From: Candidatus Omnitrophota bacterium
GTDB lineage: Bacteria; Omnitrophota; Gorgyraeia; 1-14-0-20-64-10
Assembly (NCBI GenBank): GCA_023818695.1
Contig: JAMWCF010000001.1
Span: forward strand, 467,306 to 531,305
Direction: 5' to 3'
DNA: 64,000 nucleotides
Shown one piece after another: positions 290 to 64,000 of the stretch (within the stretch, counting starts at the first letter, position 1; each line of letters starts with the position of its first letter). The notes under the pieces are model-generated. The model had not been told where the DNA came from. It did no database searches and was given only the letters and a program-made list of their open reading frames with translations. The translations under genes and the position numbers were made by a program.

Positions 290-480
290 GTGTCGGACGC
301 CGCGAGGTCTCCTGGCTCTCCCGCTCTTTCGCACGCCTTCCCATCCGCCCTTGACGGCGGCGGACAGTGGCTTCACCTATGCGCGAAAGGAACCTCTTCG
401 TCCTTCGGACGAAGGCGGGACTACAGTGGCGGGGCCGCGCCGGCTTTCGACCGGCTTCCCTCACACGGAGTCACCAATTG
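290..480 (-). promoter_or_regulatory. Cobalamin (B12) riboswitch leader of the TonB-receptor gene
   Basis: Minus strand reads AGGGAAGCCGGTCGAAAGCCGGCGCGGCCCCGCCACTGTAG, then GATGGGAAGGCG, then the B12-box-like GAGAGCCAGGAGACCTCGC. These match the conserved cores of the cobalamin riboswitch as I recall them. A GAGGGGG Shine-Dalgarno lies 6 nt before the ATG. Confidence 0.7.
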
Positions 481-524: not shown

Positions 525-3500
525 TTACGCAGAGATGAGAAGTGCTTCCTGGCCGTTGATATCGAAGGTCGTGTAAGTGCTGATCCGCTGGAAGTGCCGC
601 AGGTCAGTCAGAAGATTCAGCAGCTCAAAGACACCGAACAGGCGGCGAAGATTGGAGGTTTCCAGCAAGAGGATAGTCGAGCCGGTCAGCTGTTCTTTCC
701 GTATCTGCACGGCCCTGCCGTAAGAGGCCTCATCCAGAGCCGCGTGGATGACAACCGAATCTTGAAGGGCCGCATCGATCACCTGCAACGCCCTAGAAGG
801 ATCGGCTGGGACGAACCGGACCCGCCGGGCGGCCTCCTGCGGGGAGATCAGCAAGGCCCCTGCAACCGCGTTGATCAGCAACCCCATGTCATCCAGCGGA
901 ATGAGGGCTTCGCTGACCAGGACAATTGGCTCGCTTTCCTCGGAGACAAATTGCCAACTACGCCCCGAAAGGAGGTTCGGCTGGTCCCGCCGGGAGATGA
1001 TGAAATCGGCCTCCGGCAGGAAGATCCTCGACCTGCTCCCTATCTCAACAACAGACCGGCCGTCAGGGCGGATGATCCCGGAAAACCGGTTCCCAAAAAG
1101 GGATCCGAAACGTCCCAGATTCGGTTCGATCTCTGGGTCGGCCGTAAGCTGGAAGAGCCCCTCCAAACCGGCCTGTGCCGTGACACCGGGGGTCTTTCTG
1201 CCCGGCGCAACCCAGATGAAGGGCTGTCCCCCTTGAGACCGGGGCATGATGAAAACCATTTGCGGGCTCAAGTTGGAGAGAGAGATCGCCTGCCGGACGT
1301 TCCCGGAAATGAAGGTCTTCGCTTCCGACTCTTCCATGGGAAGATCCCGCTGGGCAACCGGGTTTAGCCCCGCGTCCAAAAAGACAATACTGGAGAAACG
1401 GCCTGTCTGGGCAATTGCCACCAGCTCATCAATCGCTTGCTGCTCCTCCCGACCTCGGGAGAGATAAAGCTCCAGTTCACCCTGCATCCACAAGCGCGGA
1501 AGGGAGGTCCCGTACCGATCCGATTCCCTGGCAAAATACCAGGCCCGCCCCGACAGGAAATCGGCGGCACGCCGAAAATAGCCGGCCGTTTCTGACGTAT
1601 CATCGGGGGGAAACGTCCGGCGCAGCGCCTCCGCCAGAATAAAACTGCCCACAGCGGCAAAGTTTGCCACGGCGACCGCTGAATCATCACCACCCACAAA
1701 CGCCGCCTCCCTGACATCATCGGAGACCGGCTCCGTGAAACGGCCTATGACGGTACCGCGCACTGATGCGCCGAAGCTGTTCGCATCCACAAGCTGGACA
1801 GTTCCTGTCCCGGCCTGCGGGTCCATCGACAGGATCACCCGGCGTCCCAATTCTGTTAATTGGGCCGGCCGCAGCTGCGTTTCCCCTGGAGCAGCCAAAA
1901 AGGCGAAGACTCCCATCCGGTAAAGGGGGGAGTTCGATTGGATGAGAGTTCGCGTTACGCCGTCCCAGTCTCCTGCGGCAATCCGGTCCTGCACCTGCGT
2001 CACAACCAACCGAAACCCTTCGGCCATCGGGTCCGCCAAGACAATCCCCGCCAGACCGGACAAACGCCGCGCTTCATCGGCAATGGCCCGAATGGCCGCA
2101 TCATCACCAAGGGGCCTGCCCGGAGCGTTAGCCAGATCAATCAGAACCATCATGGCGCGGGTTCGATCGGTGGCCGCTCCCACGAGAACCATCCCCTGCT
2201 GAATGTTCAAATCAAACCGGGCACTCACCCAGGCCAGAAACAGAACGGCTCGCGCCAGGTCGGGATCCACCGTCGGCTGGTATTGAGAGGACAGCCCGAC
2301 CAGCCCCTGCCGCGCCTGATCGAAATCAAGGCCCCCTTCCAGAAAGCGGGTTAAGAACGGGACAATCTCCAGATGGAGTTTCGATGCCCGAACCACATCG
2401 GAAGCGACGCGGGAGCGGACCAATTCCTCCGGATGGGCCGGTTTTCCCTCTCCTGGTGTTATCTCCTCTAGACCGGCCGATGCAAGCAAATCGCCGACCC
2501 GGTCGAATATCGTGGTGAGAACCCCGGCAGGCAGCGGTTCCTGCGCCGCGGCGAAGGCGGCGGATCCCCTTCCGACATTTACGGGTGCATATCGCTCGCT
2601 CAAGAGTCCCAAACCGACCGCCGGATTCCCGCGCCACCGTGGTGGAAGAACCCCCTGCTCCCGGTTCCCTTCCCTGCGCTCGGGCTGTTCCCTGGGAGCC
2701 GGCCGCTCGCCTGGCCTGCGCCTCTGGAACAGGAAGCTGCTGTGAGGATCCACTCCGATGAAGCCGACCCGGCTGCGATCCTGCATGAGGCGGGAAACGG
2801 TCAACGCGGTCGCGGAGGAGGCCATCCCCCTTAAGGTGGTGAACAGGTGGACGAAAACGGTGGAGTAAGGCAGCCCATCCCCCTCGTAAATCTGCGAAAG
2901 GAGAACGACGCTATCATAAATGGCTTGAGCCCGTCGAAGGGCCTCATCCCGCCGCGCCGTGTCCTGCGTGACCCGGGCAAACTCTACCAAGTAATGGATA
3001 TAGCCGAAGGCCGCCTCCGCCTGGACCATCTGCTCTAGTTTTGGACGCTGATCCCTCGGGACATCCACGTAAGGGTCCTCAAAACCCTGTTGGAAAAAGA
3101 AGATTCCCGTGAAAGGCCTTTGCGCCAGCCGGCGCCGGGCGGCGTCCGAGAAATTGCCGTCCAAAACCAGACCGCTGACCCTCGTGACCACCCGGCCGTC
3201 CCTGTCCTTCGTCCGGAAGTTGTTCCAGACATATTCGATCGCCTGCCAGGCCCTGTCCTCCTCGTACGGCAGGAAGACCTGGGCCACCCAGGTGTTGTTG
3301 TCCACTGCCACGGAGCGATTGAGCGTTCCGTCCCCTCTCATGGCGGTGACAAAATGATCGTCCACCCACGCCTTCTCCCAGATGGCGTTCAAGAGCACTT
3401 CATGACGCCGGGCCAGCTCCCGGATGAACGCCTCCCGGCCCTCCAGTCGGGCCTGATCCATGACGTTGGCCGCCATCCGGTAAACATCCACAAGATCCGC

Positions 3501-4607
3501 GTTGTGCTCGAAGATAACGTCCACCAATGTTTGGTTGGGATTCCCTTCATAGACTCTATAGCCGGCCTCATCCAGGGTATAATTCCGGCCTGTTCTGGGG
3601 TTCCTGGTGTCCAGCAGGGTGTTGTATTTCATCGCCTGGATCAAACCGTACCGCGGATCTCCCTCTTTCATCACCTGCATCTCAAAGACAAGACGCCGCA
3701 GCAGGCCATTGACCCACTCCAGATGGCGCAACGCCTCTTCCCGAACATCCCTGTCATCGGACCGGAGGGCCTTTTCCACGTAGGCATAGATCGCTTTCAT
3801 AGCCCACAGCGTGTTGCCCATGGGGGCCCGGGGATCGATCCAGGAATCCTCGATGGTGTTGTAGGAGAAATGCCATCCGCCGGTGAAACCGAGGGCCTCC
3901 TCATCCCTGCCTATCTCGACCAAAGCACGGATGGCCCTCCTGGCCTCCCCCATTCTGTCGGCGGCGATGTCGTCCAAAATACCGAGTGCGGAATCGTAAA
4001 CCCAGACCCGTCCGCCGGTGGCTAGAAAACGAGTCTGCGCCCAGTTCGGATTCCTTTCGTCCACCGCGTAGCTTTGGAAAAGACCGTTGAAATCAAACCC
4101 CTCAAAAGCCCTGCCTCGCAAACACCTGTATTCGGCCAGCCTGGCCTCCGGAATGTTAGCCACCCGGACCCGGGGCCTGTCGGAAATCCGCTGGCGGTTC
4201 AGGAACCTTGTATTGTTGCTGATCAGCCCCTCGTTGACGATCGCTCGGATCCGTCCGTTCAAACGGGCCTCAGCGGCCGGATCCCGCCCCTGCGGCGGCG
4301 CCTGCCCGGGTCCCTGCCCCCCCTGATGAATCCGATCCTGCCGCACCGCCGGCTTCCATAAAGACTCAAAAGCACCGACAAGGTAGGTACCGAAGAGGGC
4401 ATAGAAAGCGCCCCTCAAAAAACCTCGGCGAGTCAACCACGGAGTCGCCCCTTCACCGCCAAGCGATCTCTCGAGTTCCTCCAATCCGGCCGATTCGGCG
4501 GGTTGACCTGGTCTCAAACCGTAAACAGACGACGGCGCCGCCAGGCAGAGGATCACAAGAAGCGCTCCCAGACGTTGTAACTCGCTGTTTTTTCGGGAAA
4601 TAGCCAT
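525..4607 (-). CDS. Very large (~1360 aa) secreted or membrane-anchored hypothetical protein; N-terminal half may be an (alpha/alpha)-barrel, glycoside-hydrolase-like fold
   Basis: Uninterrupted ORF. The ATG at 4607 gives MAISRKNSELQRLGALLVILCLAAPSSVYG, which looks like a signal peptide. The track start at 4628 is a GTG inside a hairpin. I recognise no family with confidence. Confidence 0.75.
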   Translation of the reverse strand: MAISRKNSELQRLGALLVILCLAAPSSVYGLRPGQPAESAGLEELERSLGGEGATPWLTRRGFLRGAFYALFGTYLVGAFESLWKPAVRQDRIHQGGQGPGQAPPQGRDPAAEARLNGRIRAIVNEGLISNNTRFLNRQRISDRPRVRVANIPEARLAEYRCLRGRAFEGFDFNGLFQSYAVDERNPNWAQTRFLATGGRVWVYDSALGILDDIAADRMGEARRAIRALVEIGRDEEALGFTGGWHFSYNTIEDSWIDPRAPMGNTLWAMKAIYAYVEKALRSDDRDVREEALRHLEWVNGLLRRLVFEMQVMKEGDPRYGLIQAMKYNTLLDTRNPRTGRNYTLDEAGYRVYEGNPNQTLVDVIFEHNADLVDVYRMAANVMDQARLEGREAFIRELARRHEVLLNAIWEKAWVDDHFVTAMRGDGTLNRSVAVDNNTWVAQVFLPYEEDRAWQAIEYVWNNFRTKDRDGRVVTRVSGLVLDGNFSDAARRRLAQRPFTGIFFFQQGFEDPYVDVPRDQRPKLEQMVQAEAAFGYIHYLVEFARVTQDTARRDEALRRAQAIYDSVVLLSQIYEGDGLPYSTVFVHLFTTLRGMASSATALTVSRLMQDRSRVGFIGVDPHSSFLFQRRRPGERPAPREQPERREGNREQGVLPPRWRGNPAVGLGLLSERYAPVNVGRGSAAFAAAQEPLPAGVLTTIFDRVGDLLASAGLEEITPGEGKPAHPEELVRSRVASDVVRASKLHLEIVPFLTRFLEGGLDFDQARQGLVGLSSQYQPTVDPDLARAVLFLAWVSARFDLNIQQGMVLVGAATDRTRAMMVLIDLANAPGRPLGDDAAIRAIADEARRLSGLAGIVLADPMAEGFRLVVTQVQDRIAAGDWDGVTRTLIQSNSPLYRMGVFAFLAAPGETQLRPAQLTELGRRVILSMDPQAGTGTVQLVDANSFGASVRGTVIGRFTEPVSDDVREAAFVGGDDSAVAVANFAAVGSFILAEALRRTFPPDDTSETAGYFRRAADFLSGRAWYFARESDRYGTSLPRLWMQGELELYLSRGREEQQAIDELVAIAQTGRFSSIVFLDAGLNPVAQRDLPMEESEAKTFISGNVRQAISLSNLSPQMVFIMPRSQGGQPFIWVAPGRKTPGVTAQAGLEGLFQLTADPEIEPNLGRFGSLFGNRFSGIIRPDGRSVVEIGSRSRIFLPEADFIISRRDQPNLLSGRSWQFVSEESEPIVLVSEALIPLDDMGLLINAVAGALLISPQEAARRVRFVPADPSRALQVIDAALQDSVVIHAALDEASYGRAVQIRKEQLTGSTILLLETSNLRRLFGVFELLNLLTDLRHFQRISTYTTFDINGQEALLISA

Positions 4608-4637
4608 AATAAAAAATATACCCGTCACAGCGGGTAT
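4608..4637 (-). terminator. Hairpin plus U-tract downstream of pcm (intrinsic terminator or attenuator)
   Basis: Minus strand reads ATACCCG-CTGTGA-CGGGTAT followed by ATTTTTTATT. The U-tract abuts the ATG of the next gene. Confidence 0.5.
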
Positions 4638-52472: not shown

Positions 52473-52622
52473 GATTCCGATCAGGGCAAACCCGACGTAA
52501 GAAGCGGGGGCGCAAAGCCGAGGTTCCGCCTCAAACCAGGGGCGGGAGGCCGGGCTGCCGGAATCCATGTGATTCAGGCAGCCCAGCTTTGTCTTCTTCA
52601 TGGGAGGGAGGTGAGAGTCCGT

Positions 52623-53803: not shown

Positions 53804-54178
53804 CTACGCCTTCGGCCCGCCGAGCTTCTTCATGAATTCCAGGAGCTTCTCGGGCGGGATCGGTTTGATGGGATAGTCGTCCGCTCCCAATTGCTTGGCC
53901 TTGGCCTGCTTCTCCTCATCAGGGAAGCCGGTGATCATGACGACGTGGGCGACGGGGTGGAGCCTCTTGGCCTCCCGGAGGATGCCGAAACCGTCCATGG
54001 GGCTGTTGTTCAGCTGGACGTCCAGCAGCACGAGGTCCGGCTTGTGTTCCGCGACGATCTTCAGAGCCGCGGTGCTCTCGCCGGCCGTCCAGCAGGTGGC
54101 CCCGTTCATCTCGAAGAGCATCTTCACGACGGTGTCGGCCGCGACCTCCTCGTCGTCAACGACCAGTACGCTCGACAT
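53804..54178 (-). CDS. Single-domain response regulator (CheY-like, canonical residues)
   Basis: VLVVDDEE, LVLLDVQL, MITG and IKP. Confidence 0.9.
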   Translation of the reverse strand: MSSVLVVDDEEVAADTVVKMLFEMNGATCWTAGESTAALKIVAEHKPDLVLLDVQLNNSPMDGFGILREAKRLHPVAHVVMITGFPDEEKQAKAKQLGADDYPIKPIPPEKLLEFMKKLGGPKA

Positions 54179-54497
54179 TCGTCATCCTCTGCTCCAAGTA
54201 TCGCAGCAGATCCGCCACCGTCAACAGTTTTTCCGCCTCCTCGTCCGTGATCTCGATACCGAACTGCTCCTCCACCGCCATCACGAGCTCGACGGCGTCC
54301 AGCGAGTCGATACCCAGGTCCTTCACGAAGTCGGCCTGCGGCGTGATGCCGTTGGGATAGACGCCCAGCTGCTTGGTCAGGATGTCATGCACCTTGGGCC
54401 ACAGGCTCGCACGGAAAACGACGGGCGGCTCCGGGACCTTATGCCAGGGCAGCCGCTGGGAGATCCACTGGCCCATCAGCTTAAGTCGCGTCCCCAT
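54156..54497 (-). CDS. Acyl carrier protein-like protein with ~30-aa N-terminal extension
   Basis: DFVKDLGIDSLDAVELVMAVEEQFGIEITDEEA carries the DSL phosphopantetheine-attachment motif. Confidence 0.8.
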   Translation of the reverse strand: MGTRLKLMGQWISQRLPWHKVPEPPVVFRASLWPKVHDILTKQLGVYPNGITPQADFVKDLGIDSLDAVELVMAVEEQFGIEITDEEAEKLLTVADLLRYLEQRMTNVERTGR

Positions 54498-54578
54498 GGG
54501 TTCTCACTGCACCACCAGGCGATGCTCCAGCGCCGTCCTGCCGATGAGCTGTACCAGCGTCCCCAAGGACTCCTCAGT

Positions 54579-55262
54579 TCAGGGGTCGCCGACCCATCGC
54601 TTACCCGGCACGGAGTCCAGCAGGTGCCGGTTCCTGTCGCCGGCATGCATGAAGAAGACATAGTCCCTGGGCTGAGTCTCGCAGGCGAGCAACCGCTGCA
54701 CCACCTCATCGGGATGGTGCTGCGAGGAGAGAAGCGAGAGATCCGCGACCACGAGATGCGGCTTGTGATCCGCCAGGAGTTTGAGGGCGTGCTCGAGCTG
54801 GGCGGTCCTGAGGATGAAGTACATACCTTCCGCCACCAGCGGATCCCGCAGGAGGCGCATCAGCGCGCGGGTGAGCCCGAGGTCCGGCTCCAGGAGCAGG
54901 ACGTCTGCCCTGGGCCACTCCCTCGCCGGCCCGCCGGATTCCGCCAGCCCGGGCAGGATCTGCTGGACTTCCTCGGCGTCTTTCTCGAGCAGGAACATGC
55001 ACATCGCCTCGACCATCGGCTCCCGAGCCAGGGGCTTTGGCAGTAAGCGGTCGCAGCCGACGGCCCGGAGCTCCCGTTCCTGATCCGGCTCAGCACCTAG
55101 CGCCAGGACCTTTGCCAGGGGCGCATCGGCCCGGACCCGCCGGATCAATGTCAAACCGGAGGGGCCTAGCGTCTCCAGATTGAGGACGAGCAGATCCAGC
55201 TTCGCCCAGCTGAGGATCTGCTCGGCTTCCTCCACGCCGACGATCAGGATCTTGAATTCCAA
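54579..55262 (-). CDS. Degenerate REC-pseudoREC protein (paralog 2); reading frame continues past an in-frame TGA to 54504
   Basis: ILIVGVEE and LLVLNLE replace the DD and D sites. It ends ...GKRWVGDP-TGA. The next 24 in-frame codons encode TEESLGTLVQLIGRTALEHRLVVQ, homologous to the paralog C-termini. Confidence 0.75.
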   Translation of the reverse strand: MEFKILIVGVEEAEQILSWAKLDLLVLNLETLGPSGLTLIRRVRADAPLAKVLALGAEPDQERELRAVGCDRLLPKPLAREPMVEAMCMFLLEKDAEEVQQILPGLAESGGPAREWPRADVLLLEPDLGLTRALMRLLRDPLVAEGMYFILRTAQLEHALKLLADHKPHLVVADLSLLSSQHHPDEVVQRLLACETQPRDYVFFMHAGDRNRHLLDSVPGKRWVGDP

Positions 55263-58942: not shown

Positions 58943-60298
58943 TTAAAGCCTGACTACTGCACAGGCACTGGTGAACCCCGCACCATATGTGAACATGAGC
59001 ACTAGTTGCCCCCGTTTAATTCGACCGGCGCGCATGTTCTCGTCCAACAAGACGGGAAGTTCTGCCGACACGAGATTTCCGTAGCGGGAGAAGTTTTCCA
59101 CCACCTTGTTCTGAGGTACTCCTAAAAGGCCGAGGGAGTACTCAAACAAGAACTTGCTCGGGTAATGCAGAAGGAAGACGTCTATGTCACCGATGGAAAC
59201 CCGTGCTTTCCGAAGCGTCCTGTTAACAAAGGGGATCAGGTGTCGGTCCATTACTTGAAAGAACTCTTCCCGGGCCGGGTTCATGTAGAAATAGCCTTTG
59301 TATTCGTCAGGAATTCCCGGTGGGGTGACGGTCCACGGCAGAGGAGCAAAAATGTGTGTTCCGTATTCCCCTCTGTTCCATAGTTCGCAGGCGAGGATGT
59401 CGCCCTCGCCTGAGGAATCCGCTTCGAGCAGAATGCCACCCGCTCCGTCTCCAAAAATAGCCCTGTGCATCAAGCTTTTAAACGGAAGAGACGAACCTAC
59501 TGTGCTAGCGGCGAGAACCAGAATCGCTTTGTGCCCACCCGCGATGTATCGGCGTGCGATGTCCACCGCACAAAGCCACCCAGAACAAGACATGTTAATC
59601 TCGAAGGCTGGGCAGTGTGCCCCGATCCTGACTTGTACCGTACTTCCCACATCGGGGGCTACTGCATCTCCGGGATTCACTGCACAAATGATCATGTCTA
59701 TGGTCGAGGGGTGCCGTTTCGCCTTGGTCAGGATCGCCTTGGCCACTTCGGCCATCATGCTTGAAGCATTTTGGCCTGGCTGTACGCTCCGCCTCTCAAT
59801 AGCCCCCAACGCACGCTGAATAGTTAAATCTGTGGATTTCAGTCCGTTTGCAATGATGTGGTCGTTCGTTACAATCTTATCGGGAAGAAAGCTGGCGGTG
59901 TGCGCTATCCTTGCAGTTACAGTGCGCCGACCAAAATCCCGCGTGTCCGCCGGGCCACGCGCACCCATAACGAGTTTCGCCACGATGTCTGATCCCGATT
60001 CGAGTATCCGGGAGAACTGGATTCCAGTGAGGTACCCGGAGGCAAAATTCTCAGAAGGTATACCGTTCACGTGATATTGCCAAACAACCACGCCCTCGGC
60101 TTCCACAATCTGAGTGGGGCTGGTTTGTATTTTAAGATTGAGATAACTCTCCTTCGGGAGACTTCTGGGGAGAATGGCGCTTACGCCCCCTTGGCTGAGG
60201 TCCCAAGTAGTGCCCGAACAAGGCTTCTCTGGTGCGCCCTTAAAGACACACGTAACCGGCAGTGCCGTTTTTACTCGACCGACGTGGCGACGTTCCAT
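58943..60298 (-). CDS. PilZ domain fused to a 3-oxoacyl-ACP synthase III (FabH/KAS III-like) domain
   Basis: N-terminal RRHVGR (RxxxR) and DLSQGG (DxSxxG) with ...VVVWQ...GIQF. The C-terminal ~330 aa is thiolase-fold with a candidate Cys-His-Asn triad (NMSCSGW, LLHYPSK, YGNLVSAE). Confidence 0.8.
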   Translation of the reverse strand: MERRHVGRVKTALPVTCVFKGAPEKPCSGTTWDLSQGGVSAILPRSLPKESYLNLKIQTSPTQIVEAEGVVVWQYHVNGIPSENFASGYLTGIQFSRILESGSDIVAKLVMGARGPADTRDFGRRTVTARIAHTASFLPDKIVTNDHIIANGLKSTDLTIQRALGAIERRSVQPGQNASSMMAEVAKAILTKAKRHPSTIDMIICAVNPGDAVAPDVGSTVQVRIGAHCPAFEINMSCSGWLCAVDIARRYIAGGHKAILVLAASTVGSSLPFKSLMHRAIFGDGAGGILLEADSSGEGDILACELWNRGEYGTHIFAPLPWTVTPPGIPDEYKGYFYMNPAREEFFQVMDRHLIPFVNRTLRKARVSIGDIDVFLLHYPSKFLFEYSLGLLGVPQNKVVENFSRYGNLVSAELPVLLDENMRAGRIKRGQLVLMFTYGAGFTSACAVVRL

Positions 60299-60304
60299 TC
60301 TGTT

Positions 60305-60568
60305 CTACCCCGGTTTGTTGCCGCTTAAGTGCCGCTGCAAGAAGTCGATAGTATCTTGGACGGTCACCAGCCTCATGGCTTCATCATCTGGAATTTTGAT
60401 GCCGAACGCTTCCTCTAATTTCATCACCAGCTCAATCCGCTGAAGGGAGTCCGCTCCCAGGTCCTCTGCGATTTTTTTCTCTGGAAGTACTTCTTCCACC
60501 TTAACCTTCAATTCTTCCGAGAGGGTCACTCTGGCCTTCTCGGCTATTTGAGAGGCAGTTAGCACCAT
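60305..60568 (-). CDS. Acyl carrier protein
   Basis: EDLGADSLQRIELVMKLEEAFGIKIPDDEA (DSL motif); 87 aa. Ends 6 nt before the PilZ-KASIII start. Confidence 0.88.
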   Translation of the reverse strand: MVLTASQIAEKARVTLSEELKVKVEEVLPEKKIAEDLGADSLQRIELVMKLEEAFGIKIPDDEAMRLVTVQDTIDFLQRHLSGNKPG

Positions 60569-62527: not shown

Positions 62528-62574
62528 AAAAAATCGGTTGGATATATAGACAATTGTCTGCTATTCTATCTTCC

Positions 62575-64000
62575 ATGGCGATCGCGTTGAGACGGGTTTG
62601 GAACCCTCCGAACCCTTATCTGACACAAGAGCGGGAACTGCTGGGGCAACCCCCGACCGCTGAACTCGAGGTGTACGAAGATGACTCCGACTCCATCCTC
62701 TCCCACAATGAATCCCCTGACATCGGTTTCCGCTGGAGCATCAACCCTTACCGGGGATGCTTCCATGCCTGCGCCTACTGCGTATCGGGCGATACCCCCA
62801 TCGCATTGGCAAACGGCCGCACAAAGACCATCGCGAACATTCGGGTAGGGGATGAGATTTACGGAACCGTCTTGTGCGGCAGATACCGCCGTTTCGTAAA
62901 AACGCCTGTACTGGCTCACTGGAGTGTTGTTAAACCGGCGTACCGCATCACACTTGAAGATGGAACCCAACTCATCGCCAGCGCCGACCATCGGTTTCTA
63001 ACAAACCGAGGATGGAAACATGTCACCGGCATACAGCACGGACAAACCAGACGACCGCACCTGACAATCGGAAACGAACTGCTCGGCACGGGTCAATTTA
63101 CAGCACCGCCCGAAGAAGATGCCGAATATCAGAAAGGATACCTGTGTGGCTTAATCCGGGGAGACGGATTGCTGGCCTCATACAATTACGATGGACGCCG
63201 ACGCGCTAACGATACCCAACACCAGTTTCGACTCGCACTTATCGATCTGGAAGCTCTGCATCGGGCGCGTCGATACCTGCTGACATTTGAGGTACCCACC
63301 CATGAGATTTTATTTCAACGAACAGTTGAGAAACACCAAGAGATGCGCGCGATTCGTACCAATGCTCGTTCCCATTTTGAACGAGTCTGTGAGATTGTCC
63401 GGTGGCCTGCGGCTGCGGACATCAACTGGTGCAAGGGTTTCCTGGCCGGCATTTTCGATGCGGAAGGCAGCTACAGTCGCGGGATCTTCCGGATCCACAA
63501 CACAAACCCCGATATCATTGCCTGCATCACCGACAGCTTCCGGCGATTCCGTTTCGACTACGCGGTCGAAAAAAGACCCGGCACCAACAGGCCTGTTTAT
63601 GTCGTCCGCCTGCGCGATGGTCTCACGGAACACCTGCGATTCTTCCAGACAACCGGCCCGGCCATTGCCCGGAAGAAAGATATTGCAGGTCAAGCAATCA
63701 AGAACAACGCCCGTCTACGCGTGGTCTCCATCGAGAAACTCGGGGTTTCAAAACGGATGTTTGACATCACCACCGGCACAGGGGACTTCATCGCCAACGG
63801 CGCCGTCAGCCACAACTGCTACGCTCGGCCGACGCACGAGTATCTGGGTCTGGGCGCTGGGACGGATTTCGAGAGGAAGATCTTCGTCAAGAAAAACGCG
63901 CCCCGACTCCTGGAGCAAGCGTTCCGCCGTCCCTCCTGGCGAGGAGAGCGGATTGTCTTTTCCGGTGTTACTGACTGCTATCAGCCTCTGGAGGCATCCT
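62575..64000 (+). CDS. Radical SAM protein (SplB/COG1533, PA0069-like family) interrupted by an intein; 3' end beyond the window
   Basis: Hand translation from the ATG at 62575: [15 protein letters not shown]...[29 protein letters not shown], then the intein, then [36 protein letters not shown]...[12 protein letters not shown]. No stop occurs before 64000, so it is absent from the ORF track. Confidence 0.85.
62779..63816 (+). other. Intein (346 aa) with LAGLIDADG homing-endonuclease domain
   Basis: Block [11 protein letters not shown], block [21 protein letters not shown] motifs [10 protein letters not shown] and [12 protein letters not shown]-terminal [10 protein letters not shown] followed by the +1 Cys. 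Confidence 0.85.

What the first reader, a model, noticed from the sequence alone, without database searches (positions are those of the whole stretch)
62575..64000. LAGLIDADG intein inserted inside the CxxxCxxC iron-sulfur motif of a radical SAM enzyme (gene missed by the ORF track)
The plus-strand frame from the ATG at 62575 is open to the window end. The host sequence reads ...[14 protein letters not shown] | [10 protein letters not shown]...(346 aa)...[10 protein letters not shown] | [11 protein letters not shown].... Splicing would regenerate C-FHA-C-AY-C, so the intein sits between the second and third cluster-ligating cysteines. The +1 nucleophile Cys is itself the third [4Fe-4S] ligand. 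All splicing blocks and both LAGLIDADG motifs ([17 protein letters not shown]) look intact, which suggests an active, possibly still-homing element. The enzyme cannot bind its cluster until it is spliced.
Basis: partly seen in the sequence, partly recalled or inferred. Interest (0 to 1): 0.75.

Follow-up and report, generated by a model that had tools for sequence, protein, structure and literature searches.

The report
Homing-endonuclease intein splitting a radical-SAM motif
A self-splicing protein insert (an intein carrying its own DNA-cutting enzyme) sits between the second and third iron-sulfur cysteines of a DNA-repair-type radical SAM enzyme; it is real and looks intact, but it belongs to a widespread, already catalogued kind.

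Summary
The + frame from ATG 62575 is open to the window end. Residues 69-414 (nt 62779-63816, 346 aa) are a canonical class-1 intein with a two-motif LAGLIDADG endonuclease. It lies between ...GCFHACAY and CYARPTHEY.... Removing it in silico gives a 343-aa protein that passes NCBI's cutoff for the PA0069 family of radical SAM proteins in one unbroken match. Intein-free homologues (66-74% identical) align straight across the junction, including a syntenic orthologue with an empty site. The exact 689-aa protein is already in NCBI, from a Candidatus Omnitrophica MAG. "SplB/COG1533" inteins are listed among the commonest bacterial inteins (Novikova 2016). NCBIfam holds a curated model (NF038136) for the sister Rv2578c family, which carries a 55-56% identical intein at the same site. 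At least 502 species-representative genomes encode a relative. New here: relatives of this intein occupy the same CxxxCxx|C position in several other radical SAM families, including phage QueE and peptide maturases. The intein is more conserved than its hosts and has a foreign GC3. Splicing, endonuclease activity and any redox or Fe-S gating remain untested inferences.

The parts
62575..62778 (+). N-extein (aa 1-68) of a PA0069-family (COG1533/SplB-like) radical SAM protein. It ends with the first two cluster cysteines: C62 (62758-62760) and C66 (62770-62772, intein position -3), then A67 and Y68.
   Evidence: G61, C62, C66 and Y68 are invariant in 144 homologues. The start codon agrees with the N-termini of homologues.
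62779..63816 (+). Complete class-1 intein, 346 aa, from Cys1 (62779-62781) to His345-Asn346 (63811-63816).
   Evidence: The insertion is clean relative to intein-free homologues. The AF2 model's best PDB matches are PI-PfuI, the Tli VMA intein and PI-SceI. C1, H71, D129, E229, H345 and N346 are invariant in 16 diverse relatives.
62779..62817 (+). Splicing block A ([13 protein letters not shown]). Cys1 is the nucleophile for the N-S acyl shift.
   Evidence: Cys1 is present in 115 of 116 relatives; G4 and T6 are present in all 116. TIGR01445 matches residues 69-143.
62962..63012 (+). Splicing block B ([17 protein letters not shown]). His71 is invariant; Ser68 stands in place of the usual Thr.
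63115..63678 (+). LAGLIDADG homing-endonuclease domain (intein residues about 113-300), made of two alpha-beta-beta-alpha-beta-beta-alpha halves.
   Evidence: DSSP on the AF2 model. Foldseek matches I-DmoI with target TM-score 0.70-0.79 and rmsd about 3 A. PF14528 scores 23.0 against a cutoff of 22.5. Mini-intein relatives have this segment precisely deleted (P0126).
63136..63168 (+). LAGLIDADG motif 1, [11 protein letters not shown], with catalytic Asp129.
   Evidence: D129 invariant.
63436..63471 (+). LAGLIDADG motif 2, [12 protein letters not shown], with catalytic Glu229.
   Evidence: E229 invariant. Every residue of the motif is at least 90% conserved in 116 relatives.
63757..63816 (+). 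Splicing blocks F and G ([20 protein letters not shown]). Includes Asp329, the penultimate His345 and the terminal Asn346.
   Evidence: All 118 junctions that could be scored end in HN.
63817..64000 (+). Start of the C-extein (aa 415-475). Cys415 (63817-63819) is both the +1 splicing nucleophile and the third Cys of CxxxCxxC. The gene continues past the window end; by L001 it would run to window-equivalent 64644, 689 aa in all.
   Evidence: C415 is invariant in 144 homologues, with or without the intein.
62548..62559 (.). Perfect palindrome AGACAATTGTCT, 15 nt upstream of the ATG. It is a candidate operator of the host gene and is not part of the intein.
   Evidence: The same AGAC-N4-GTCT box lies upstream of the orthologue in three other Omnitrophota loci (L002, L082/L083, L084/L085). 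In L002 it lies between a -35-like and a -10-like hexamer.

Best explanation
The 1038-nt insert is a mobile, canonical class-1 intein with an embedded monomeric double-LAGLIDADG homing endonuclease. It sits in the chromosomal gene for a PA0069-family (COG1533, spore-photoproduct-lyase-like) radical SAM enzyme of an Omnitrophota bacterium, exactly between the second and third cysteines of the CxxxCxxC [4Fe-4S] motif.

Inferred mechanism, from established intein chemistry:
1. The 689-aa precursor is translated.
2. Cys1 attacks the Tyr68 carbonyl (N-S acyl shift).
3. Cys415 (+1) takes over the N-extein by trans-thioesterification.
4. Asn346 cyclises, helped by His345, and releases the intein.
5. 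An S-N shift leaves a native peptide bond. This recreates C-FHA-C-AY-C in a 343-aa mature enzyme.

At the DNA level, the freed intein's endonuclease (Asp129/Glu229) is expected to cut intein-less alleles at the sequence encoding this motif, which is highly conserved. Repair then copies the intein in (homing). Because the target encodes an indispensable motif, the element is hard to lose. Its relatives have also been able to colonise the same motif in other radical SAM families.

Shown here: the anatomy, the clean insertion, the family assignments, the predicted fold, conservation of the catalytic residues, presence/absence polymorphism at orthologous loci, and compositional and phylogenetic signs of horizontal origin.

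Inferred only: actual splicing, endonuclease activity and target, and the present-day mobility of this particular copy.
For: Insertion and families:
- The insertion is clean and the exteins are continuous with those of intein-free homologues.
- The spliced product passes NF033668 (376.8 against 360) in one stretch, residues 25-343. The unspliced protein matches in two stretches and scores 357.9.
- Intein and LAGLIDADG HMMs hit.

Structure:
- The AF2 precursor model has pLDDT 88.4.
- Its top PDB folds are endonuclease-bearing inteins (1dq3, 7qsu, 1vde) and I-DmoI, with target TM-score up to 0.79.
- The model of the intein-free orthologue best matches spore photoproduct lyase (4k9r, 4fhf).

Conservation:
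- Cys1 is present in 115 of 116 relatives. HN|C is present in all 118 scored junctions. D129 and E229 are invariant in the diverse A1 set.
- Mean pairwise identity of the endonuclease region is 0.578. The C-extein scores 0.585-0.618.

Signs of mobility:
- The syntenic orthologue L082 (tilS | rSAM | ... mnmA-panB-folD) has an empty site that is 54/60 nt identical to the reconstituted site.
- Mini-inteins lacking the endonuclease occur at the same site.
- Across 76 genomes the intein is 52-62% identical to ours. Their exteins are 36-64% identical (means 0.56 and 0.42, r=0.22).
- Intein GC3 is 0.595, against 0.796 for its own exteins and 0.737 +/- 0.058 for genes in the window.
- Relatives sit at the same motif in at least 15 extein clusters, including viral contigs.
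Against: - There is no experimental evidence of splicing or DNA cleavage for this or any closely related copy.
- Among close relatives, intein and extein identities co-vary (r=0.65). The nearest intein is only about 70% identical, so nothing points to a recent invasion of this genome.
- The comparison sets were chosen by similarity to the query. This inflates the apparent conservation of the intein and flattens its identity range.
- TIGR01443 (intein C-terminal region) scores 15.1, just under its cutoff of 15.6. PF14890 is under its cutoff on the whole protein (33.5-34.7 against 35.8).
- Block B has Ser where the consensus has Thr.
Confidence: 0.88

Rival explanations
1. The intein has been co-opted as a conditional switch and is not merely a parasite. 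In the precursor, Cys1 completes a C62-x3-C66-x2-C69 triad. Under oxidising conditions Cys-3 (C66) and Cys1 form a disulfide, as reported for the Pyrococcus abyssi MoaA intein. Alternatively the triad binds a metal or an Fe-S cluster. Either would block the N-S acyl shift, so the oxygen-labile enzyme matures only when conditions are reducing. This could hold alongside the best explanation.
For: - Cys-3, Cys1 and Cys+1 are essentially invariant.
- Reviews describe a native Cys-3:Cys1 disulfide that controls splicing of the intein in MoaA, which is also an oxygen-sensitive radical SAM enzyme (PMC3922620, PMC10663303).
- The intein persists across at least 7 phyla and in many radical SAM families at this one motif.
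- The host family appears linked to DNA damage. Rv2578c has a LexA ChIP peak (PMC3381160). The orthologue in L084 is adjacent to ruvCAB. A conserved operator-like box lies upstream.
Against: - Cys-3 and Cys+1 are conserved because the host needs them as cluster ligands, so their presence says nothing independent about regulation.
- Many close orthologues, one of them syntenic, do without the intein, so it is not required.
- There are no redox or metal-binding data.
- The AF2 confidence of the Cys loop (below 50 in the precursor; about 83 for the CxxxC block of the mature orthologue) is not informative without cofactors.
Confidence: 0.2
2. The intein still splices but is an immobile passenger. 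Its endonuclease is inactive or has lost its targets, and it is inherited vertically within Omnitrophota. It is held in place only because imprecise loss would destroy the Fe-S motif.
For: - The nearest relatives are no more than about 70% identical in the intein. Extein and intein identities correlate among close relatives (r=0.65).
- No near-identical copy was seen in a different host.
- Endonuclease-less mini-inteins at this site show that the endonuclease is dispensable for persistence.
Against: - Both LAGLIDADG motifs and the catalytic Asp and Glu are conserved in most relatives and invariant in the diverse A1 set.
- The endonuclease region is about as conserved as the host enzyme. This is not expected for a decaying domain.
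- The GC3 of the endonuclease region (0.572) is far from the host value.
- The intein is more conserved than the exteins across host families.
Confidence: 0.25
3. The insert is not a functional intein. It could be an assembly chimera, a pseudogene-forming insertion, or a non-splicing Hint-domain fusion that inactivates the radical SAM gene.
For: One relative (P0094) has Arg in place of Cys1, so dead copies do occur.
Against: - The identical sequence occurs in an independent assembly (Logan SRR27730039) and in an NCBI MAG.
- The frame is open throughout, and all splicing residues are intact in this copy.
- Hundreds of homologues have the same architecture.
- The exteins remain as conserved as in intein-free genes.
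Confidence: 0.02

Closest known systems
Intein-containing Rv2578c family radical SAM proteins (NCBIfam NF038136), which correspond to the 'SplB / COG1533' inteins of Actinobacteria listed by Novikova et al. 2016 (PMC4760082, Table 1: 48 inteins)
   Same: The insertion point is the same (CxxxCxx|C...SHN|C[FY]AR). The intein is homologous, 55-56% identical to ours in the bona fide members P0242 and P0243, which score 815 and 882 against the cutoff of 700. It has the same LAGLIDADG architecture. The host superfamily is also the same, COG1533.
   Different: Our host belongs to the sister PA0069 family. NF033668 is passed after splicing, while NF038135 scores 218 against 430 and NF038136 scores 474 against 700. 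The organism is an Omnitrophota MAG, not an actinobacterium. Novikova 2016 lists this intein for Actinobacteria only.
Pyrococcus abyssi MoaA intein ('redox trap'; Callahan et al. 2011 NSMB, as summarised in PMC3922620 and PMC10663303)
   Same: The host is an oxygen-sensitive radical SAM enzyme. There is a native Cys at extein position -3 together with a catalytic Cys1. An insertion at CxxxCxx|C would produce exactly this arrangement.
   Different: I could not verify the exact MoaA insertion point, because the primary paper is not held. That it is the cluster motif rests on my recollection. Sequence relatedness between the two inteins was not tested. Redox-dependent splicing is shown for MoaA and is untested here.
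PI-PfuI, PI-SceI and the Tli VMA intein (solved endonuclease-bearing inteins), and I-DmoI (monomeric LAGLIDADG endonuclease)
   Same: Hint domain with an inserted double-LAGLIDADG domain. These are the top Foldseek hits (E from 5e-15 to 1e-10). I-DmoI matches with target TM-score 0.70-0.79.
   Different: Sequence identity is only 12-17%. The hosts differ (RNR, V-ATPase). There is no extra DNA-recognition region of the PI-SceI type; at 346 aa this intein is compact.
Inteins at P-loops of unrelated ATPases (Novikova 2016, 'intein clustering')
   Same: Related inteins sit at one short, indispensable cofactor-binding motif in several host families. Here the motif is the radical SAM CxxxCxxC. The hosts are COG1533 proteins, QueE, SPASM peptide maturases, B12-binding radical SAM proteins and Gp37/Gp68-like proteins.
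   Different: The motif and cofactor are different. I found no description of the radical SAM case in the searchable library. That is only an absence of hits in an incomplete library.

Membership tests
Intein (class 1 protein-splicing element, Hint fold) | In-frame insertion that is absent from homologues, whose sequences are continuous across the site | tested here: met
   MAFFT alignment with 7 intein-free homologues shows ...GCFHACAY|CYARPTHEY... with a 346-aa gap. The spliced product gives one unbroken NF033668 match.
Intein (class 1 protein-splicing element, Hint fold) | Nucleophile at position 1 (Cys/Ser), block B His, C-terminal His-Asn, and a +1 Cys/Ser/Thr | tested here: met
   Cys1, His71, His345-Asn346 and Cys+1 are present and conserved in 115-118 relatives. 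Block B has Ser68 in place of Thr.
Intein (class 1 protein-splicing element, Hint fold) | Curated intein HMMs reach their cutoffs | tested here: inconclusive
   TIGR01445 scores 33.5 against 24.5 and passes. PF14890 scores 36.2 against 35.8 on the isolated insert but 33.5-34.7 on the whole protein. TIGR01443 scores 15.1 against 15.6 and just fails. Overall the result is positive but marginal for the generic models. The specific model NF038136 gives E=4e-112 on the window fragment and 8.5e-142 on the full protein.
Intein (class 1 protein-splicing element, Hint fold) | Hint fold with N- and C-terminal splicing halves flanking the endonuclease | tested here: met
   AF2 model with pLDDT 88.4. The top PDB matches are PI-PfuI, the Tli VMA intein and PI-SceI.
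Intein (class 1 protein-splicing element, Hint fold) | Autocatalytic excision and ligation of the exteins | not testable with these tools
   Needs expression followed by SDS-PAGE and mass spectrometry.
LAGLIDADG homing endonuclease (single-chain, two motifs) | Two LAGLIDADG helices, each ending in a catalytic acidic residue | tested here: met
   [10 protein letters not shown]129G and [10 protein letters not shown]229GS. D129 and E229 are invariant in 16 diverse relatives. Both motifs are at least 90% conserved at most positions in 116 relatives.
LAGLIDADG homing endonuclease (single-chain, two motifs) | Tandem alpha-beta-beta-alpha-beta-beta-alpha fold | tested here: met
   The DSSP pattern spans precursor residues 183-274 and 283-360. 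I-DmoI matches with target TM-score 0.70-0.79. PF14528 scores 23.0 against 22.5.
LAGLIDADG homing endonuclease (single-chain, two motifs) | Site-specific cleavage of the intein-less allele, leading to homing | not testable with these tools
   Indirect evidence only: empty and occupied orthologous sites, the intein more conserved than its hosts, and a foreign GC3.
PA0069 family radical SAM protein (NCBIfam NF033668; COG1533 'SplB-like') | Whole-protein score at or above the curated cutoff (360) | tested here: met
   The in-silico spliced 343-aa product scores 376.8 bits, residues 25-343 against profile positions 30-348 of 348. The unspliced protein scores 357.9 in two stretches.
PA0069 family radical SAM protein (NCBIfam NF033668; COG1533 'SplB-like') | CxxxCxxC cluster motif and the partial TIM-barrel radical SAM fold | tested here: met
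   The motif is regenerated as C62-FHA-C66-AY-C415. Pfam PF04055 scores 60.1 from profile position 1 after splicing. The model of the 74%-identical intein-free orthologue best matches spore photoproduct lyase, TM 0.51-0.56.
Intein-containing Rv2578c family radical SAM protein (NCBIfam NF038136) | Whole-protein score at or above 700, with exteins of the Rv2578c family (NF038135 at or above 430) | tested here: not met
   The full protein P0001 scores 473.9 against NF038136 and 211-218 against NF038135. True members P0242 and P0243 score 815 and 882. It works like this family but is not a member.
Intein-containing Rv2578c family radical SAM protein (NCBIfam NF038136) | Homologous intein at the CxxxCxx|C site | tested here: met
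   P0242 and P0243 read ...GCSH[SA]C[VS]Y|C...SHN|CFARN.... Their inteins are 55-56% identical to ours over all 346 residues.
Redox-trap inteins (P. abyssi MoaA type) | Cys at extein position -3 positioned to form a disulfide with Cys1 | tested here: met
   C66 is at position -3 and is invariant. This is sequence evidence only.
Redox-trap inteins (P. abyssi MoaA type) | Splicing is reversibly blocked by the Cys-3:Cys1 disulfide | not testable with these tools
   Needs biochemistry. See the next steps.

The most novel reading that the evidence does not exclude
This intein belongs to a clade specialised on the radical SAM CxxxCxxC motif. The clade has moved between functionally unrelated radical SAM enzymes of bacteria and phages: COG1533 repair-type enzymes, QueE, SPASM peptide maturases and B12-dependent enzymes. 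It always uses a cluster-ligating Cys as the +1 nucleophile. In the precursor, the intein's own Cys1 mimics the third ligand. Splicing, and hence enzyme maturation, is therefore gated by the redox or Fe-S state of the cell, through a Cys-3:Cys1 disulfide or through metal or cluster binding to the pseudo-motif. This would make it a post-translational checkpoint for oxygen-labile enzymes rather than a pure parasite.
Probability: 0.15. Interest if true: 0.7.

Novelty: new member of a known kind. Interest (0 to 1): 0.3.

Why it matters
For annotation: the gene is deposited simply as 'radical SAM protein', and its intein makes it narrowly fail its family cutoff (357.9 against 360). Recognising the intein restores the PA0069 assignment.

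For intein biology: the case extends the 'SplB/COG1533' intein from Actinobacteria to Omnitrophota. This work also found it in Acidobacteriota, Pseudomonadota, Myxococcota, Planctomycetota and Gemmatimonadota. One intein lineage repeatedly occupies the Fe-S motif of many radical SAM families, phage genes included. This parallels the known clustering of inteins at ATPase P-loops.

The arrangement Cys-7, Cys-3, Cys1 ... Cys+1 offers a natural system for testing whether Fe-S or redox status gates protein splicing. None of this is surprising to an intein specialist. The element itself is ordinary.

Tried and rejected
1. I tried to read Callahan 2011 (PMC3087850) and Novikova 2014 (PMC4031506) to fix the exact MoaA insertion site. 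Neither is held, so that parallel stays partly from memory.
2. A sequence search of the PDB with the intein gave only weak hits to mini-inteins: gp41-1 at E=4e-4 and DnaB inteins. There is no close solved relative, so fold comparison was needed.
3. A tblastn search of GenBank phages gave a single weak hit: Virus Rctr197k, 24.7% identity, annotated 'radical SAM protein-like'. The IMG/VR viral contigs were far more informative.
4. I compared the AF2 confidence of the Cys loop in the precursor (residues 62-66 below 50) with the intein-free orthologue (block 61-70 averages 83). This might have shown that the precursor cannot form the cluster site. I rejected it as evidence, because AF2 has no cofactors and the following segment is low-confidence in both models.
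5. I looked for a recent transfer, meaning near-identical inteins in divergent hosts, among 112 close relatives. None was found. The most discordant pairs differ by only about 14 identity points.
6. I considered whether the host is an Rv2578c-family member, as the top NCBIfam hit suggested. Rejected: the Rv2578c models fail their cutoffs and PA0069 passes.
7. I considered class-2, class-3 or BIL-type Hint domains. Rejected: Cys1, His-Asn and Cys+1 are all canonical.
8. dN/dS was not attempted. The nearest DNA relatives are about 70% identical at the protein level, so synonymous sites are likely saturated.
9. The third homologous-protein search was left unused. No remaining question justified its cost.
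Full report
OBSERVATION. Translating window 62575-64000 on the + strand gives 475 sense codons and no stop. The sequence reads [15 protein letters not shown]...[14 protein letters not shown] | [10 protein letters not shown]...[10 protein letters not shown] | [11 protein letters not shown].... The middle segment is exactly 346 aa, at nt 62779-63816. The ORF is absent from the mechanical ORF list only because it runs off the window end. A public contig (L001) is identical to the window over the 2529 nt they share. It shows the whole gene: 689 aa, ending at what would be window position 64644. The same 689-aa protein (P0001, 100% identity) is deposited at NCBI as 'MAG: radical SAM protein [Candidatus Omnitrophica bacterium]'.

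WHAT IT IS.
Three lines of evidence show that the insert is an intein.
- Intein-free homologues are abundant. The best 120 hits to the in-silico spliced protein are 62-74% identical, and nearly all are 320-390 aa long. They align without a gap across the proposed junction, [17 protein letters not shown], while the window protein carries a clean 346-aa insertion.
- After in-silico splicing, the 343-aa product matches NCBIfam NF033668 (PA0069 family radical SAM protein). It does so in one stretch covering profile positions 30-348 of 348, at 376.8 bits against a curated cutoff of 360. The unspliced protein matches in two pieces and scores 357.9. Pfam Radical_SAM likewise matches from profile position 1 only after splicing.
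- The insert has every canonical class-1 splicing element. These are Cys1 (block [14 protein letters not shown]), block B with His71, block F ([15 protein letters not shown]) and block G (VSHN) followed by Cys+1.
- Generic intein models hit. TIGR01445 scores 33.5 against 24.5, and PF14890 scores 36.2 against 35.8 on the isolated insert. TIGR01443 is just under its cutoff at 15.1 against 15.6.

Between the splicing halves lies a two-motif LAGLIDADG endonuclease: [10 protein letters not shown]129G and [10 protein letters not shown]229GS. PF14528 scores 23.0 against 22.5.

An AlphaFold2 model of the whole precursor was built from 144 aligned homologues (pLDDT 88.4). It shows two alpha-beta-beta-alpha-beta-beta-alpha repeats inside a beta-rich Hint domain. 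Its best PDB matches are the endonuclease-bearing inteins PI-PfuI, the Tli VMA intein and PI-SceI. The free LAGLIDADG enzyme I-DmoI also matches, with target TM-score 0.70-0.79.

A model of the 74%-identical intein-free orthologue P0122 best matches spore photoproduct lyase (4k9r and 4fhf, TM 0.51-0.56), followed by other radical SAM enzymes.

THE INSERTION POINT. The motif is C62-F-H-A-C66-A-Y68 | intein | C415. The intein therefore lies between the second and third cluster cysteines. Cys+1 is the third ligand, by homology with the radical SAM superfamily motif, which is established knowledge. C62, C66, Y68 and C415 are invariant in 144 homologues, with or without the intein. C66 is extein position -3.

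HOW COMMON AND HOW KNOWN.
- Of the 120 best full-length relatives, 118 show the same C..xC..|C...HN|C[YF]AR architecture. The two exceptions are a truncated gene call and one Cys1-to-Arg variant.
- A search of 1.84 billion representative proteins with the intein alone gave 2027 hits, 282 of them at E<=1e-30.
- A scan of one genome per GTDB species found at least 502 loci. Of the best 80, 78 carry the intein at this site in COG1533 genes. The taxa are Omnitrophota, Acidobacteriota, Actinomycetota, Pseudomonadota (including the cultured Microbulbifer magnicolonia), Myxococcota, Planctomycetota and Gemmatimonadota.
- NCBIfam has a curated 'exception' model, NF038136, for 'intein-containing Rv2578c family radical SAM protein'. 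Bona fide members (P0242 at 815 bits and P0243 at 882 bits, cutoff 700) carry a 55-56% identical intein at the same site.
- Novikova et al. 2016 list 'SplB, COG1533' with 48 inteins among the top bacterial intein hosts, for Actinobacteria only (PMC4760082).
- The window protein itself is not a member of NF038136 (474 against 700). Its exteins are not Rv2578c-family either (218 against 430). They belong to the sister PA0069 family.

It is therefore a new member, in a new subfamily and phylum, of a known kind.

EVIDENCE ON MOBILITY.
(a) Occupied and empty alleles exist at orthologous loci. L082 has the same neighbourhood: tilS lies divergently upstream, and a small ORF, mnmA, panB and folD lie downstream. 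It carries a 345-aa intein-free gene. Its empty site is 54/60 nt identical to the site reconstituted from the window gene, against 73.6% identity for the exteins overall.
(b) Endonuclease-less mini-inteins (155-236 aa) occur at the same site, in both PA0069-type and Rv2578c-type hosts. Together with (a), this covers the stages of the classical homing cycle.
(c) Across 76 genomes, the intein is 52-62% identical to ours and the exteins only 36-64%. The means are 0.56 and 0.42, with r=0.22. An element more conserved than its host argues for spread after the host families diverged. The set was chosen by intein similarity, which exaggerates the effect.
(d) Intein GC3 is 0.595. Its own exteins have 0.796, and 19 window genes average 0.737 +/- 0.058.
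(e) The endonuclease region is about as conserved as the host enzyme. Mean pairwise identity is 0.578, against 0.585-0.618 for the C-extein. Its catalytic Asp and Glu are invariant in 16 diverse relatives.

Against recent mobility of this copy: the nearest intein is only about 70% identical. Among close relatives, intein and extein identities co-vary with r=0.65.

A WIDER PATTERN FOUND HERE. The flanks of 44 full-length relatives from the representatives search were examined, together with 29 matches from IMG/VR viral contigs. Nearly all sit at CxxxCx[YFW]|C of radical SAM proteins that are otherwise unrelated. The hosts fall into at least 15 sequence clusters. After in-silico splicing:
- A viral protein passes the QueE model (L109, TIGR03365, 243 against 206).
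- Another passes the CXXX-repeat radical SAM/SPASM peptide-maturase model (L097, TIGR04115, 373 against 350).
- Others are B12-binding BchE/HpnJ-like enzymes (P0284, P0317) and Gp37/Gp68-like ('mobile pair A'-like) proteins (P0261, P0281, L099).
- P0307 carries the intein one cysteine earlier (RGCPYR|C...|CNFC).

In two viral contigs (L101, L106) the same maturase gene carries a second intein. It lies directly before the conserved C-GGG cysteine, which is absent as an insertion site from the orthologues L097, L110 and L102. Judging from the SPASM family, this cysteine is probably an auxiliary-cluster ligand. That is an inference.

I found no paper in the searchable library that describes inteins targeting the radical SAM motif. 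That library is incomplete.

MECHANISM. The best-supported account is the standard one.
- Protein level: N-S acyl shift at Cys1, trans-thioesterification to Cys415, Asn346 cyclisation assisted by His345, then an S-N shift. This regenerates CFHACAYC and a functional PA0069-type enzyme.
- DNA level: the Asp129/Glu229 endonuclease cleaves empty alleles at the conserved motif-coding DNA, and repair copies the intein in.

These steps are inferred from conserved residues and from established intein and LAGLIDADG chemistry. None is demonstrated.

It is unproven, and the precursor's pseudo-motif with Cys1 leaves room for other behaviour.

A regulatory reading has a precedent. In the P. abyssi MoaA intein, a Cys-3:Cys1 disulfide blocks splicing until conditions are reducing (PMC3922620, PMC10663303). 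Here it has no independent support, since the cysteines involved are conserved for the host's sake and many orthologues lack the intein. I give it about 0.2 as an added function.

CONTEXT. The gene sits in ordinary chromosomal surroundings: tilS upstream; rpoBC, fusA, tuf and a tRNA cluster elsewhere in the window. It is not in a mobile island.

A perfect palindrome, AGACAATTGTCT, lies 15 nt before the start codon. The same AGAC-N4-GTCT box precedes the orthologue in three other Omnitrophota loci, regardless of intein status. In L002 it lies between -35-like and -10-like hexamers. Two further observations fit with this. M. tuberculosis Rv2578c has a LexA ChIP peak (PMC3381160). In L084 the gene precedes yebC-ruvCAB. 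Together these suggest, without testing, damage-inducible repression of the host gene.

VERDICT. The element is a typical, probably functional LAGLIDADG intein at a known insertion site, and it is widespread and already catalogued. Its modest value lies in three things:
- the phylogenetic and subfamily extension;
- the evidence that one intein lineage colonises the Fe-S motif across radical SAM families and phages;
- a testable redox or Fe-S gating hypothesis.

Interest 0.3. Novelty: new member of a known kind.

Noticed in passing
window 62548-62559; also L002 1275-1286, L082 3981-3992, L084 3963-3974: A conserved AGAC-N4-GTCT palindrome lies just upstream of the COG1533 radical SAM gene in four Omnitrophota loci, whether or not the intein is present. 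In the window it reads TAGACAATTGTCTG, 15 nt before the ATG. In L002 it lies between -35-like TTGACA and -10-like TAGTAT. It is a candidate repressor operator, possibly LexA-like. Only one copy occurs in the 64-kb window.
   Followed up: partly
Loci L087-L112 (IMG/VR viral contigs); proteins P0261, P0281, P0284, P0307, P0317: Relatives of this intein (23-48% identical) sit at the same CxxxCxx|C position in unrelated radical SAM families. These include phage QueE (L109), a CXXX-repeat SPASM peptide maturase (L097), B12-binding BchE/HpnJ-like enzymes and Gp37/Gp68-like proteins. P0307 has the insertion one cysteine earlier.
   Followed up: partly
L101 and L106 (viral contigs), downstream of the first intein: The same phage radical SAM/SPASM maturase gene carries a second intein. 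It is a mini-intein in L106 and bears a LAGLIDADG domain in L101. It lies directly before the conserved C-GGG cysteine, and the orthologues L097, L110 and L102 lack it. Both inteins in this gene therefore use a conserved cysteine as +1; the first is an Fe-S ligand, and the C-GGG cysteine is only presumed (by inference from the SPASM family) to be an auxiliary-cluster ligand.
   Followed up: partly
P0126, P0322, P0359, P0366, P0371, P0378 (database proteins): Mini-inteins of 155-236 aa occur at the same site, with the endonuclease domain precisely deleted. One full-length relative (P0094) has Cys1 replaced by Arg and is presumably splicing-dead.
   Followed up: partly
window 58943-60298 (-), with 60305-60568 (-): A 451-aa protein fuses an N-terminal PilZ (c-di-GMP-binding) domain to a FabH/KAS III ketosynthase. 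It lies next to an 87-aa ACP-like ORF. This is an unusual pairing of a second-messenger receptor with a condensing enzyme.
   Followed up: no
window 52475-52562 (+): A c-di-GMP-I riboswitch (46.3 bits, gathering score 35). The next + strand ORF of at least 250 aa (53895-55046, 383 aa) has no Pfam hit.
   Followed up: no
window 305-461 (-): A cobalamin riboswitch (59.9 bits). It points towards a gene that lies beyond the left edge of the window.
   Followed up: no
window 525-4628 (-): A 1367-aa ORF with no Pfam match at E<=1e-5.
   Followed up: no
L084 4001-8067 (Omnitrophica JACPAY010000015): In this genome the intein-free orthologue lies immediately upstream of yebC-ruvC-ruvA-ruvB. This is consistent with a DNA-repair role for the PA0069/COG1533 family.
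   Followed up: no
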